Assembly: GCA_032718475.1 (NCBI GenBank)
Contig: JAUCBJ010001164.1
Location: 13,743 to 77,742 of the forward strand
From: Nemertoderma westbladi
Lineage: Eukaryota; Animalia; Xenacoelomorpha
DNA length: 64,000 nucleotides
Direction of reading: 5' to 3'
The translations under genes and the position numbers were made by a program. Under the pieces are notes generated by a model. That model saw only the letters and a program-made list of their open reading frames with translations, was not told where the DNA came from and ran no database searches. The number at the start of each line of letters is the position of its first letter. The stretch's first letter is position 1. Positions 201 to 27,500 of this stretch are shown here, piece after piece.

Positions 201-358
201 CGACATCATTACTTTATTCCCTGTCAGCCTGTAGGTTTTGTGTTACGACATTATTACTTTATTTCCTGTTGGTGTTATGTTGCGACAATATTACTTTATT
301 TCCTGTAGGTGTTAATGTTGCGACATTTTTACTTTATTTCCCTGTAGGTGTTATGTTG
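201..358 (+). repeat. 4 degenerate ~38-bp copies of the exon A acceptor junction
   Basis: Unit ~CGACAnnnTTACTTTATTTCCTGTAG|GTGTTATGTTG. Confidence 0.85.
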
Positions 359-509
359 GGGTTTGCGGAACATGAAGAAGTTCCAACTCACTGCTGTGAC
401 GTCTCCAAGCATCGAGTTTGAGTGCGGCGGATATATTTACAAATCTGATATCATTAAAGACATGTCGAAAAATCCCAATTTCCCCACGCCCCTGATATTC
501 TTTGATGTG
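348..509 (+). CDS. MYOF-like: Ferlin exon A ([14 protein letters not shown]...PLIFFDV)
   Basis: cctgtag| ... |gtaagt; 162 nt, phase 0-0; matches ferlin WGLRNMK...PNFP segment. Confidence 0.95.
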
Positions 510-21500: not shown

Positions 21501-24500
21501 TGTACCAGTTCGGTTAGTGTAAGACATACACCTTGTACCAATTCGGTTAGTGTAAGAGATACACCTTGTACCAGTTCGGTTAGTGTAAGACATACACCTT
21601 GTACCAGTTCGGTTAGTGTAAGACATACACCTTGTACCAGTTCGGTTAGTGTAAGACATACACCTTGTACCAATTCGGTTAGTGTAAGAGATACACCTTG
21701 TACCAGTTCGGTTAGTGTAAGACATACACATTGTACCAGTTCGGTTAGTGTAAGACATACACATTGTACCAGTTCGGTTAGTGTAAGACATACACATTGT
21801 ACCAGTTCGGTTAGTGTAAGACATACACATTGTACCAGTTCGGTTAGTGTAAGACATACACATTGTACCAGTTCGGTTAGTGTAAGACATACACATTGTA
21901 CCAGTTCGGTTAGTGTAAGACATACACATTGTACCAGTTCGGTTAGTGTAAGACATACACATTGTGCCAGTTCGGTTAGTGTAAGAGATACACCTTGTAC
22001 CAGATCGGTTAGTGTAAGAGATACACCTTGTACCAGATCGGTTAGTGTAAGAGATACACCTTGTACCAGTTCGGTTAGTGTAAGAGATAAACCTTGTACC
22101 AGTTCGGTTATTGTAAGACATACACCTTGTACCAGTTCGGTTAGTGTAAGAGATACACCTTGTACCAGTTCGGGTAGTGTACGAGATACACCTTGTACCA
22201 GTTCGGTTAGTGTAAGAGATACACCTTGTACCAGTTTGGTTAGTGTAAGAGATACACCTTGTACCAGTTCGGTTAGTGTAAGAGATACACCTTGTACCAG
22301 TTCGGTTAGTGTAAGAGATACACATTGTACCAGTTCGGTTAGTGTAAGAGATACACCTTGTACCAGTTCGGGTAGTGTATGAGATACACCTTGTACCAGT
22401 TCGGTTAGTGTAAGAGATACACCTTGTACCAGTTCGGTTAGTGTAAGAGATACACCTTGTACCAGTTCGGTTAGTTTAAGAGATACCCTTTTTGGACCAG
22501 TTCGGTTAGTGTAAGAGATACACATTGTACCAGTTCGGTTAGTGTAAGACATACACATTGTACCAGTTCGGTTAGTGTAAGAGATACACCTTGTACCAGT
22601 TCGGTTAGTGTAAGAGATACACCTTGTACCAGTTCGGTTAGTTTAAGAGATACACCTTGTACCAGTTCGGTTAGTGTAAGAGATACACCTTGTACCAGTT
22701 CAGTTAGTGTAAGAGATACCCTTTTTGGACCAGTTCGGTTAGTGTAAGAGATACACATTGTACCAGTTCGGTTAGTGTAAGACATACACATTGTACCAGT
22801 TCGGTTAGTGTAAGACATACACATTGTACCAGTTCGGTTAGTGTAAGACATACACCTTGTAACAGTTCGGTTAGTGTGAGAGATACACCTTGTACCAGTT
22901 CGGTTAGTGTAAGAGATACACCTTGTACCAGTTCGGTTAGTGTAAGACATACACCTTGTACCAGTTCGGTTAGTGTAAGATATACACCTTGTACCAGTTC
23001 GGTTAGTGTAAGACATACATCTTGTACCAGTTCGGTTAGTGTAAGACATACACATTGCACCAGTTCGGTTAGTGTAAGACATACACCTTGTACCAATTCG
23101 GTTAGTGTAAGAGATACACCTTGTACCAGTTCGGTTAGTGTAAGACATACACCTTGTACCAGTTCGGTTAGTGTAAGACATACACCTTGTACCATATAAC
23201 ATTTACCGTTGTTTGATTGGCCAATATTTTTCTGTATTGTAGAAGGCGACGCCCCCCTGAACCCCCATCTGGGACCTCCAGAGGAGCGATTGGCTCTACA
23301 CATCCTCCACTCTATGAACATGGTACCGGAGCACGTAGAGACCCGTCCGCTCTACAACCCCGCGCAACCCAACATCGAGCAGGGCCGGTTGCAGATGTGG
23401 GTCGACATATTCCCCAAAAGTATGGGAGACCCTCCAGAGCCGGTTAACATAGAGCCCCGAGCGGCCCAGAGGTGAGTAGCGAGTCGGCCGATCGGACCAG
23501 AGGTGCGTAGCGAGTTGGCCGATCGGCCCAGAGGTGAGTACCGGTTGCGAGTAGGCCGATCGGCCCAGAGGTGAGTAGCGAGTTGGCCGAGCGGCCCAGA
23601 GGTGAGTAGCGAGTCAGCCGATCGGCGCAGAGGTGAGTAACGAGTTGGCCGATCGGCCCAGAGGTGAGTAGCGAGTTGGCCGATCGGCCCAAAGGTGAGT
23701 AGCGAGTTGGCCGATCGGCCCAGAGGTGAGTAGCGAGTTGGCCGATCGGCCCAGAGCTGAGTATCTGTTGTGAGTTGGTGGTAATATATCAAGCAAAGCA
23801 GCAAGCAAACAGTCGGCCGAAGCCGGAGGCGACCCGAAGGCTCCTCTTTCGAAAGCTGCTACCCGAGGGTAGGGATGGGCGCTACTCCTATCCCAAGATT
23901 TGCTCCCAGTTATTTAACTGGTACTCATTTTATCGACCCCAGTGGATGAAAGCTGAGTGGACCCAGGCGGGGCTGAACCGACAACCACTAGATTGCAGGT
24001 CCGGCGTTCAACCAACTGAGCTACACCGCCTGGTAATATATATAATTATATAAATTTGACTTTGTATTGAGTGTTGCTTAGCGACCAATTTACCATAGTT
24101 AAATTATTTTTCCATTCTATTACAGTTACATTTTACGTTGTGTCATTTGGAACACTAAAGATGTTCTGTTACAAGAGACTTCGTTTACTGGGGAACAAAT
24201 GTCGGATATTTACGTCAAGGTAAAGTCTTCTATTACTTAAATGTTTATAATATGGCCGACAATATGGTTATTTTTGATGTAGTCTATATTTTTATTAAAT
24301 CCCTTTTAAAGAAAATTGTTTCTTTAAAAATAAGTATTGGTTGAGTTTCTATTATTGGAAATCCACAATAACGAAATTAATAGTTATTTGTACTCAAACT
24401 GGCGTCTGTAACCTGAACTTCTCATCTTCCTTCAGGGTTGGATCGACGGCGTTAACGAGAAACAGAAGACGGACGTTCACTACCGCTCCCTCGATGGGGA

Positions 24501-27500
24501 AGGTAACTTCAACTGGCGTCTCGTATTCCCCTTTAATTATCTCCCCGCAGAGAAACAAGTTGTTATAAGAAAGAAGGAGCACTTCTGGAGTTTAGATAAA
24601 ACAGAAGAGCAATTACCTCCGAGGTTTATAGAAATAGTTATTTATTTAGAATTACAACATGAAATGGTTTTGTCTCTTTTGTTACGGTAATTTGAAATTC
24701 TTATCCGTTATTCATTGACTTCATATTAGTAGGAGGTATTTAGGACTAGTATAATATTGTTGCTATGCAACTAACCTGGGACATTTTACCATAACTGCAT
24801 AATAATTAATGAATTGGTTCAAATGAAGAAATATTGGGCCCTTCATAATAATGACCTCACGCAACCTCGCGTGACCTCACGCGACCTCACGCGACCTCAC
24901 GCGACCTCACGCGACTTCACGTGACCTCACGCGACCTCACGCGAACTCACGTGACCTCACGCGACCTCACGCGACCTCACGCGACCTCACGTGACCTCAC
25001 GCGACCTCACGACCACATGTGTTTGTTAAGTCAAAATTTTATTACAATTTATTACACACACATTTATTACAAATAGCTTGTGATGTTAATTGATAATTAT
25101 ATTATTTCAATTATTTGTCAAGCAAGTTACTTAAAACCTTACGGGTAGGTATGCAAGGACCGCAGTATGTAAAAAACTAAAAAGCAATTGGACCGAGACG
25201 GATGATTAGTGATTAGCTGACGGCAGTCAGTTTCGCCTCAAGAAGCAAAGCATTCTCAGTAGGCCAAGCTAATAAATGATGACATTTAGTGTGTGAAGTC
25301 CCAAAGGGAGATGGAACTTCCAATGAATCAAAGAGATACCGCAGTAACTATACACTGGGAAGCAGCACCACAAACTTGCGCCAATCGTATTTCTGATTGT
25401 TAATAATAGGTCGGCGAGTGCGAATATAATACATTTCAAGCGTTTGCAGAACAGGCAACAATGGGTGCCGTGCAAATACTTTGAAATGTTTAAATAAGTC
25501 AGTCAGCCAACGTATATTGGGAGCCACGCTACTATTACTTAAGAACAATACAACATCGCATTGTTGATAGGTTTGCGGTTCAGGTCTGGGATAATGATTT
25601 GTTCTCCGCGGACGACTACATCGGGCAGATGATGTTGAATCTGGAACGAATGCCGGCCCCCGCTAAAACCGCATACAGCTGTAGTTTAAGCCAATTGGAC
25701 CTGAGTAACTCTAAGCCAATCAGCTTGTTCCAAATGAAGCGATCCAGGGGATGGTGGCCAATCGTAACGGAGGACACCGCTGAAGGAATAATAGCTGTGA
25801 GTAATGTATGCTGCATAAATTATAGCTGTGAGTAATGTATGCTGCATAAATAATGGCTGTGAGTAATGTATGCTGCATAAATTATAGCTGTGAGTAATGT
25901 ATGCTGCATAAATAATAGCTGTGAGTAATGTATGCTGCATAAATAATAGCTGTGAGTAATGTATGCTGCATAAATAATAGCTGTGAGTATTGTATGCTGC
26001 ATAAATATTAGCTGTGAGTAATGGATGCTGCATAAATGATATCTGTGAGTAATGAATGCTGCATAAATGTGTGCTGCATAAATACTGTGCTCAGTTGCGG
26101 AAATCAATCTACCAAATATTATCCGGATAATATAATATTTATCCAATCAACGATCTAAAAGTTTATTATGTTCATTTCGCATTTATGTTTTTATGTCAAT
26201 TTTGCGATAAGTTTGTTACGTAAAACTTCAATAATATTAAAAAAAAATAAAAAATCTTTTATAAAAAAAAGTATTTTTTTGTCCTCCTGATAATCCGAAT
26301 TCCTCGAAATACTAAAAGCATTTTTTCGTCGGACTTAGGGCCTCGATGAAAATATGCTTTCAAAACTAAACCTCGAAAATGCAGATTATAAAGTCGGTCA
26401 AAAAATGTAACTTTCTTTTTGTAAAATAAATAAGTATTGGTGATATAACTATTTACTATTTACCATTTTTCTGCGTTATGGTCCGAGTTTACCGAGCGAG
26501 CGCTACTAAGTTATTGATTACTTTGCAGCGTTCCGTCCTAGGCCGCAACGCTGTAAAGAAGTACCTTGTTGTGTAACAAGGATATCACGAAAAAGTTGAT
26601 AAGTTGACATAATGTAACAATATATTGTTTAAACTTTTTGTGTTCGAATATATTTATTTAAATATTTGTCTTACATATTTTTTAGGGTAAAGTAGAAATG
26701 GAATTAGAATTAGTTACGGAGCAGGAGGGAGACGAAAGACCGGCTGCGAAAGCTCGCGACGAACCCAATTTAAACCCCAAACTAGACCCACCTAAGTAAG
26801 TTACTATTATAAACCCTAAACTAAACCCACCTAAGTAAGTTACTAATATAAACCCTATTCATATAAACACTACATCTGGACATTAAATATTATATTATCT
26901 TAAAATTATCCTCTTTTTTTTTACTTGACAGCAAAAGTGCGGACAATAAAGAATTTATAATAATAGTATAAAGTTTTTCAATGAATTTTAAAAGAATTCG
27001 TATAAATATTATTCATCCAATCAACGATCTCTTATTTTATTCAGTTGTATTTGAATTTATAGTGTTGTCTATATTATAGTTATGTCTAGTGACTACTACT
27101 AGGTATGTCTAGTGACTACTACTAGGTATGTCTTGTGACTACTAATAGGTATGTCTAGTGACTACTACTAGGTATGTCTAGTGACTACTACTAGGTATGC
27201 CTAGTGACTACTACTAGGTATGTCTAGTGACTACTACTAGGTATGTCTAGTGACTACTACTAGGTATGTCTAGTGACTACTACTAGGTATGTCTAGTGAC
27301 TACTACTAGGTATGTCTAGTGACTACTACTAGATATGTCTAGTGACTACTACTAGGTATGTTTAGTGACTACTACTAGGTATGTCTAGTGACTACTACTA
27401 GGTATGTCTAGTGACTACTATACTAGTGACAACTACACTAGTGACTACTACTAGGTATGTCTAGTGACTACTACTAGGTATGTCTAGTGACTACTACTAG

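What the first reader, a model, noticed from the sequence alone, without database searches (positions are those of the whole stretch)
201..26856. Systematic tandem amplification of real splice junctions (splice-site-anchored minisatellites)
Seen: seven junctions of one gene are each the terminal unit of their own tandem array, with unrelated unit sequences. Acceptors: exon A (4 copies) and exon F (6). Donors: exon F (22), I (~59), J (~10), M (9) and N (2). Each unit straddles the exon/intron boundary, so every copy carries the authentic splice signal plus 10-25 nt of exon. The 2-to-59 copy range reads like a time series from single duplication to multi-kb array. Established: duplication of splice-site-containing segments is a known route to intron gain, but normally as rare single events. 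Inference: a junction-targeted duplication process (e.g. co-transcriptional slippage or R-loop repair at splice sites) may drive intron growth in this genome. The spliceosome would then have to select the exon-proximal site out of dozens of near-identical decoys, implying strict exon definition or stepwise/recursive use of the array.
Basis: partly seen in the sequence, partly recalled or inferred. Interest (0 to 1): 0.88.

Follow-up and report, generated by a model that had tools for sequence, protein, structure and literature searches.

The report
Dense "mirage" splice-junction repeats, ferlin gene
Seven exon edges of an animal membrane-repair (ferlin) gene have been copied head-to-tail, splice signal included, 2 to 59 times into the neighbouring intron; the assembled transcripts use the true site next to the exon, so this is a dense example of a repeat type already named "mirage" in lancelets and likely harmless, though why repeats crowd at exon edges is still open.

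Summary
Observation confirmed. The gene is a myoferlin/dysferlin-like ferlin with 18 exons in the window. Seven junctions are the end unit of their own 30-51 bp array, at the copy numbers reported. The arrays are not assembly stutter: DNA contigs of two studies carry the five arrays laid. Spliced contigs use the exon-proximal site at 6 of 7 junctions (five seen directly, one by length arithmetic, exon A untested). Within the window 7 of 14 arrays straddle a junction against 1.4 expected (p about 2e-4), but p rises to 0.02-0.09 under stricter nulls, and the window was picked for this pattern. The other arrays also sit near exons. Junction arrays hold only 15% of the array bases in these introns, so they do not drive intron growth here; copy number does not track age, and no intron was gained. 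The structure matches amphioxus "mirages" and human F7/CBS repeats, and this scan has reported it before in other genomes. Best reading: neutral minisatellite debris concentrated at exon edges, tolerated because the nearest site wins. A junction-targeted origin is not excluded (about 25%); no genome was available to test it.

The parts
348..40073 (+). 3' part of a type-1 ferlin gene (myoferlin/dysferlin-like). Exons A 348-509, B 693-811, C 1023-1122, D 11366-11422, E 15103-15228, F 15451-15576, G1 16806-16961, G2 17878-18039, H 18857-19068, I 21052-21248, J 23243-23471, K 24126-24219, L 24436-24623, M 25571-25796, N 26686-26795, O1 36494-36641, O2 39330-39477, P 40041-40073 (stop; inferred)
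   Evidence: Open spliced frame; homologues; Pfam C2 and Ferlin_C; tblastn; spliced contigs
201..358 (+). Exon A acceptor array: 37 bp x4, 26 nt intron + 11 nt exon; AG at 234, 308 and 347 (true), lost in one copy; decoy use shifts the frame
15289..15461 (+). Exon F acceptor array: 30 bp x6, 19 nt intron + 11 nt exon; five decoys, in frame but each followed by a stop codon
   Evidence: E-F joint uses 15451
15556..16671 (+). Exon F donor array: 51 bp x22, 21 nt exon + 30 nt intron; all 22 keep GT; the whole array is an open in-frame read-through (385 codons)
   Evidence: spliced contig leaves at 15576 into exon G2
21224..23194 (+). Exon I donor array: 33 bp x59 plus part unit, 25 nt exon + 8 nt intron; read-through hits a stop at once; fills almost the whole intron (56 nt left when collapsed)
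23457..23763 (+). Exon J donor array: 31 bp x10, 15 nt exon + 16 nt intron
   Evidence: J-K joint at 23471/24126 in X4 and X5
25787..26068 (+). Exon M donor array: 31 bp x9, 10 nt exon + 21 nt intron
   Evidence: M-N joint at 25796/26686 in X4 and X5
26767..26857 (+). Exon N donor duplication: 39 bp x2 plus part unit, 29 nt exon + 10 nt intron
   Evidence: X5 contig leaves the window at 26795; X1 and X2 DNA contigs span both copies
46600..56563 (-). Possible eighth case in the neighbouring TPPP/p25-alpha gene: 20 bp x about 490; the array starts at the donor of an inferred 25 nt exon (56587-56563) and shares only 1 nt with it
   Evidence: exon inferred from splice signals and frame only, no read or Pfam support
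1223..11079 (+). Non-junction array, 41 bp x238, starts 101 nt after exon C
11694..14950 (+). Non-junction arrays, 44 bp x46 (11694-13737) and 32 bp x16 (14416-14950)
27077..34423 (+). Non-junction array, 23 bp x313, unit holds an AG|GT donor-like site
36683..39282 (+). Non-junction arrays, 34 bp x19 (42 nt after O1) and 45 bp x42 (48 nt before O2)
43014..45696 (-). Non-junction array, 27 bp x99, 61 nt from the last TPPP acceptor

Best explanation
These are 'mirage' minisatellites: short segments spanning seven exon edges were tandemly duplicated and amplified into the adjacent introns, likely as neutral products of the same process that made the other arrays here, and they are tolerated because the site next to the exon is the one spliced. 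Shown: the arrays, their junction origin, proximal site use in assembled transcripts at 6 of 7 junctions, and the clustering of all arrays near exons. Inferred: 20-50 bp duplications arise often in this genome and grow by slippage or unequal exchange; those inside exons are purged; the introns were short before the arrays grew, so an edge is often hit; arrays next to exons probably also survive longer because deletions there are selected against. Inferred from human F7 work: the first donor downstream of the exon wins; 6 of 7 decoy sets give a frameshift or stop, so rare errors would be removed by nonsense-mediated decay.
For: Arrays make up 61% of the window and half of the arrays do not straddle a junction. 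Collapsed introns are short: 56, 79, 152, 164 nt for I-J, E-F, A-B, F-G1. All 16 arrays lie within 272 nt of an exon in collapsed coordinates; the 8 non-junction ones have a median gap of 81 nt against 222 expected, p=0.04. Units are unrelated to each other (longest shared word 11 nt). No purge of decoy GT: 88 of 91 full-length decoys keep it, variant types 2 in 8 GT columns against 45 in 138 others. Proximal use. Same anatomy and same harmlessness in amphioxus Adh3, globins, troponin C, PGBD5 and human F7, LMNB2, PDGF.
Against: A junction peak remains after allowing for short introns and exon-near zones: 7 of 17 against 3.4 within own introns, p=0.017; 8 of 12 against 3.4 within 100 nt, p=0.006, or 0.025 without the TPPP case. 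All seven ferlin units hold at least 8 nt on both sides of the junction (0.83 expected). The survival-bias step is untested. Contigs drop rare isoforms, and 34 joint rows were not shown, so low-level decoy use is not excluded.
Confidence: 0.68

Rival explanations
1. Junction-targeted origin: breaks or polymerase slips occur preferentially at exon-intron boundaries (paused transcription, R-loops, chromatin or G+C steps, recombination hot spots), so duplications are seeded on junctions.
For: 7 of 14 against 1.4 expected, p=1.7e-4; residual peak in zone nulls; possible eighth case in a second gene starting at donor +1; earlier scan notes report the same excess in other genomes (unchecked).
Against: One window, chosen for the pattern. 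p=0.026-0.09 if 60-70% of the collapsed intron length is later insertion, and much of it is high-copy repeat (depth up to 3e5). No unit contains bases of the neighbouring exon, so there is no sign of a spliced RNA template. No hairpin or palindrome excess in units (p=0.50 and 0.23).
Confidence: 0.22
2. Functional decoys: the arrays tune expression or isoforms, by feeding transcripts to decay, by adding 17-residue in-frame repeats at exon F, or by loading U1 on long introns.
For: The F donor array is open in frame over all 22 units. Decoys keep GT. Non-junction units score as donor-like on the sense strand more often than shuffles (Fisher p=0.003-0.007). Human IFI6 and CBS use two pseudo-sites.
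Against: The one X4 contig laid on 14951-15860 uses neither F decoy set. GT is no more conserved than other unit positions. One open 10-codon stretch is unremarkable and the units are near-identical copies. The donor-motif test was post hoc, and 2 of 8 arrays score higher on the antisense strand.
Confidence: 0.08
3. Assembly stutter at junctions.
For: X1 depth on the F arrays is lower than the assembly predicts (3.5-5.8x against 12.9; 1.4-2.3x against 4.3).
Against: Units carry diverged variants; two studies hold the unit-to-unit joints; X2 depth matches the assembly.
Confidence: 0.02

Closest known systems
Amphioxus 'mirage' minisatellites: Adh3 (units 10-72 bp), globins BflGb6 and BflGb9, troponin C, PGBD5 (PMC3087553, section 16 and passages read; PMC3902484, passages read; the original Adh3 paper PMC117041 known only through these two)
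   Same: Tandem units spanning exon-intron boundaries, on both donor and acceptor side, several in one gene, most copies keep AG or GT, normal splicing undisturbed, origin unexplained.
   Different: Seven junctions of one gene, up to 59 copies and 2 kb; an animal whose lineage I could not place (homologues 55-75% identical across vertebrates, corals, molluscs, flatworms); a within-window null test and contig evidence for site choice.
Human junction-spanning VNTRs: F7 intron 7 (37 bp x5-9), CBS intron 13, interferon-inducible 6-16, LMNB2, PDGF intron 4 (PMC1557585; abstract, synopsis, introduction and passages read)
   Same: First unit spans the donor; identical pseudo-donors follow; the most upstream donor is used.
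   Different: One per gene and donor side only in humans; here five donors and two acceptors in one gene.
Intron gain by tandem duplication of an AG|GT segment (Rogers model; PMC3265369 and PMC4974935, search listing and start of abstract only)
   Same: Tandem duplication of DNA that holds a splice signal.
   Different: There the duplication makes a new intron inside an exon; here the copies fall into an intron whose own end sites stay in use, so no intron is gained.

Membership tests
Mirage minisatellite | Tandem unit spans a real exon-intron boundary | tested here: met
   7 arrays, 10-29 nt exon plus 8-30 nt intron
Mirage minisatellite | Minisatellite-sized unit (10-160 bp in amphioxus) | tested here: met
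   30-51 bp
Mirage minisatellite | Both 5' and 3' boundaries can be duplicated; many but not all copies keep AG/GT | tested here: met
   2 acceptors, 5 donors; GT in 98 of 103 donor units; one A copy lacks AG
Mirage minisatellite | Normal mRNA is made from the authentic site | tested here: met
Mirage minisatellite | Length instability between haplotypes or in the soma | tested here: inconclusive
   F array depth differs about threefold between X1 and X2, but contig depth is no copy number
Mirage minisatellite | Concerted evolution within the cluster | not tested
   Blocks of shared variants are visible along the I array; no tree was built
Intron gain by tandem duplication | A new intron is bounded by a donor in one copy and an acceptor in another | tested here: not met
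   Joints run from the exon-proximal site to the next exon and remove the whole array
Recursive splicing | Intermediate splice junctions or lariats inside the intron | not testable with these tools
   Only assembled contigs were available, no nascent or lariat reads
Type-1 ferlin (myoferlin/dysferlin) | Tandem C2 domains and Ferlin_C with a C-terminal membrane helix; best hits among myoferlin and dysferlin | tested here: met
   the DysF domains lie upstream of the window and were not seen

The most novel reading that the evidence does not exclude
In this genome, and perhaps in many marine invertebrates, new tandem duplications are seeded preferentially on exon-intron boundaries by a transcription- or chromatin-coupled lesion, so that about half of all minisatellites are born as splice-site copies and some grow to 10 kb of several hundred donors (the TPPP case). 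This would give mirages the missing mechanism and link splicing geometry to mutation.
Probability: 0.25. Interest if true: 0.7.

Novelty: new member of a known kind. Interest (0 to 1): 0.33.

Why it matters
As a known kind it is a clean natural test bed for splice-site choice: ladders of 5 to 58 near-identical donors or acceptors in one gene, with the proximal site chosen. The acceptor arrays are the more informative, since the last of six AG sites is used, which a plain first-AG scan from an upstream branch point would not give. The origin of mirages is stated as unclear in the amphioxus literature, and my nine searches found no genome-wide test of junction enrichment; a genome this rich in arrays would allow one.

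Tried and rejected
No whole genome is held, so no genome-wide test. No RNA holder was listed by record; X4 and X5 are labelled 'DNA?' but their contigs join exons at GT..AG and X4 has no depth in unique introns, so I treat them as RNA-derived (inference). X5 had nothing on 14951-15860. Hairpin or palindrome seeding: no excess. Shared seed element among units: none beyond 11 nt. Purging of decoy GT: none. A 54 nt cassette exon at 1210-1263 that would make the 41-mer a donor array: rejected as origin, because collapsing the array removes the donor, and the X4 contig joins C straight to E. Donor-like motifs in non-junction arrays: weak and post hoc. Upstream TPPP exons: 0 of 30 open stretches scanned matched p25-alpha, so the 25 nt exon stays inferred. 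Lineage: two single-exon searches, limited to proteins up to 2000 residues, found no close relative. Earlier notes on this genome or look-alike stretches: none. Literature searches for a genome-wide report: none found; the library lacks most subscription papers; PMC10078293 (passages) treats repeat length and splicing but showed no junction-spanning survey. No supplements were read.
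Full report
Gene. The + strand of 348-40073 holds the 3' part of a type-1 ferlin. Seventeen exons located by their ends splice into one open frame by either of two paths; an eighteenth, with the stop, is inferred at 40041-40073. 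Single-exon searches return myoferlin and dysferlin of corals, vertebrates, molluscs and flatworms at no more than 70% (exon H) and 75% (exon J), so the lineage is not placed; an invertebrate is likely (inference). Pfam gives C2 and Ferlin_C. G1/G2 and O1/O2 are duplicated exons that match the same stretch of each homologue. A TPPP/p25-alpha gene lies on the minus strand at 42863-46502.

Observation. TRF listed 44 rows, which merge into about 20 loci; arrays cover 61% of the window. Units are 30-51 bp with 10-29 nt of exon. GT is present in 98 of 103 donor units; one exon A copy has lost its AG and the last J copy its GT. Decoy use would shift the frame (A, J, M) or meet a stop (F acceptor, I, N; J and M also stop within 12 codons); only the F donor array is open in frame, for 385 codons.

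Not an artefact. Six runs were listed, four were laid. DNA contigs of X1 and X2, two studies, run from exon J to 23536, enter the M array from both sides and span the N duplication. On the F arrays X2 depth is 11.9-16.4 and 3.5-4.7 times single copy, against 12.9 and 4.3 expected from the assembly; X1 gives 3.5-5.8 and 1.4-2.3, which may be fewer copies or library bias. One of the DNA runs may be the source of the assembly.

Which site is used. X4 and X5 are labelled 'DNA?' but yield spliced contigs. One 1680 nt X4 contig joins C to E (skipping D), E to F at 15451 (the last of six acceptors), leaves F at 15576 into G2, and joins J-K, K-L, L-M and M-N at the exon-proximal donors. The distance on that contig between the end of F and the start of J is 571 nt, exactly G2+H+I, so the first I donor is used. 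X5 contigs repeat the J-K and M-N joints and leave exon N at 26795. Contigs drop rare forms and 34 joint rows were hidden, so minor decoy use is not excluded; the joint table was complete and showed none for the five F acceptor decoys and the first five F donor decoys.

More than chance? I collapsed each array to one unit and placed units at random in positions not wholly exonic. Ferlin alone, period 20 or more: 7 of 14 straddle, 1.4 expected, p=1.7e-4. All 17 loci between 201 and 39282: 7 against 1.5, p=3.4e-4. Left out of these counts: sub-period rows, the 22-mer at 40738, the 16-mer at 46543, and, the 10-, 14- and 15-mers. Stricter nulls weaken the result: each array kept in its own intron, 3.4 expected, p=0.017; collapsed introns cut to 60, 40 or 30% to allow for later insertions, p=0.003, 0.026, 0.09; only positions within 300, 150, 100 or 60 nt of an exon, p=0.001, 0.003, 0.006, 0.018 with the TPPP case and 0.007, 0.016, 0.025, 0.068 without. 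The eight non-junction arrays are also near exons (median 81 nt against 222, p=0.04). The window was selected for the pattern, so these values cannot show a genome-wide bias, and no genome was held.

Junction arrays add 3,976 bp to the ferlin introns and non-junction arrays 22,547 bp: minisatellites do inflate these introns, but mostly not the junction kind. If the 10 kb TPPP array counts as junctional the share rises, but it shares one base with an exon that is only inferred. Copy number is no clock: the two-copy N array differs from its exon at 4 of 29 bases, the first I units at none of 25. No intron is gained. No unit holds neighbouring-exon sequence, units show no hairpin excess, and decoy GT is neither purged nor protected, so there is no positive sign of an RNA-templated, structure-driven or selected origin.

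Mechanism. Shown: arrays, junction content, proximal use, exon-near clustering. Inferred: a high rate of 20-50 bp duplication with growth by slippage or unequal exchange; loss of exon-internal events; short ancestral introns (56-250 nt for several) that make edge hits common; shelter from deletion next to exons. From the literature: in human F7 the most upstream of identical donors is chosen and the rest are functional but silent. On the acceptor side the exon-proximal AG is used, which fits exon definition (inference). A residual junction peak keeps a targeted origin alive at about one in four.

Comparison. The anatomy is that of amphioxus mirages: units spanning either boundary, several per gene, most keeping AG or GT, splicing undisturbed, origin unclear, and of five human donor VNTRs. 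I read section 16 and passages of PMC3087553, passages of PMC3902484, the first of six parts and passages of PMC1557585, passages of PMC10078293; the Adh3 paper is second-hand. Nine searches found no genome-wide test of enrichment. The scan's own notes list ten similar findings in other genomes; these are unchecked and are not support.

Verdict. A real, dense, read-supported example of a known kind; interest 0.33. The open point is whether duplications are born on junctions or only survive there.

Noticed in passing
window 16806-16961 and 17878-18039: Exons G1 and G2 are a diverged duplicate pair (80 of 166 aligned bases) for the start of the same C2 domain; likely mutually exclusive. The X4 contig uses G2.
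   Followed up: partly
window 36494-36641 and 39330-39477: Exons O1 and O2 (148 nt each, 101 identical) encode alternative ferlin membrane anchors; likely mutually exclusive. The X4 contig ends exactly at the exon N donor, as a branch to two exons would cause.
   Followed up: partly
window 11366-11422: 57 nt in-frame exon D (basic then acidic linker) is skipped in the X4 contig; a cassette exon or not an exon.
   Followed up: partly
window 42863-56587, minus strand: TPPP/p25-alpha gene with exons 46502-46399, 46221-46116, 42953-42863 and an inferred 25 nt exon 56587-56563; its 10 kb intron is about 490 copies of a 20-mer carrying a donor motif (451 copies of the core).
   Followed up: partly
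window 27077-34423: 23-mer array begins right after an acceptor-like stretch and each unit holds AG|GT with a strong donor score (p=0.006 against shuffles); resembles a ladder of recursive-splice-like sites; has a higher-order pattern with 15-mer interruptions.
   Followed up: partly
window 23800-24000: Very high-copy short interspersed element in intron J-K (summed contig depth above 3e5 against about 25 single copy), also present in the spliced runs.
   Followed up: no
window 25145-25534 and 26055-26700: Further multi-copy elements in introns L-M and M-N by contig depth.
   Followed up: no
window 34430-36130: Stretch whose two ends look like inverted copies of each other, possibly a non-autonomous DNA transposon; seen by eye only.
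   Followed up: no
window 59450-64000, minus strand: By eye, long coding-like sequence with integrase, RNase H and reverse-transcriptase-like words, probably an LTR retrotransposon; not searched.
   Followed up: no
window 14355-14400 and 25787-26068: The degenerate lead-in of the 32-mer array shares a 13-base word with the exon M array unit; unexplained, seen by eye.
   Followed up: no
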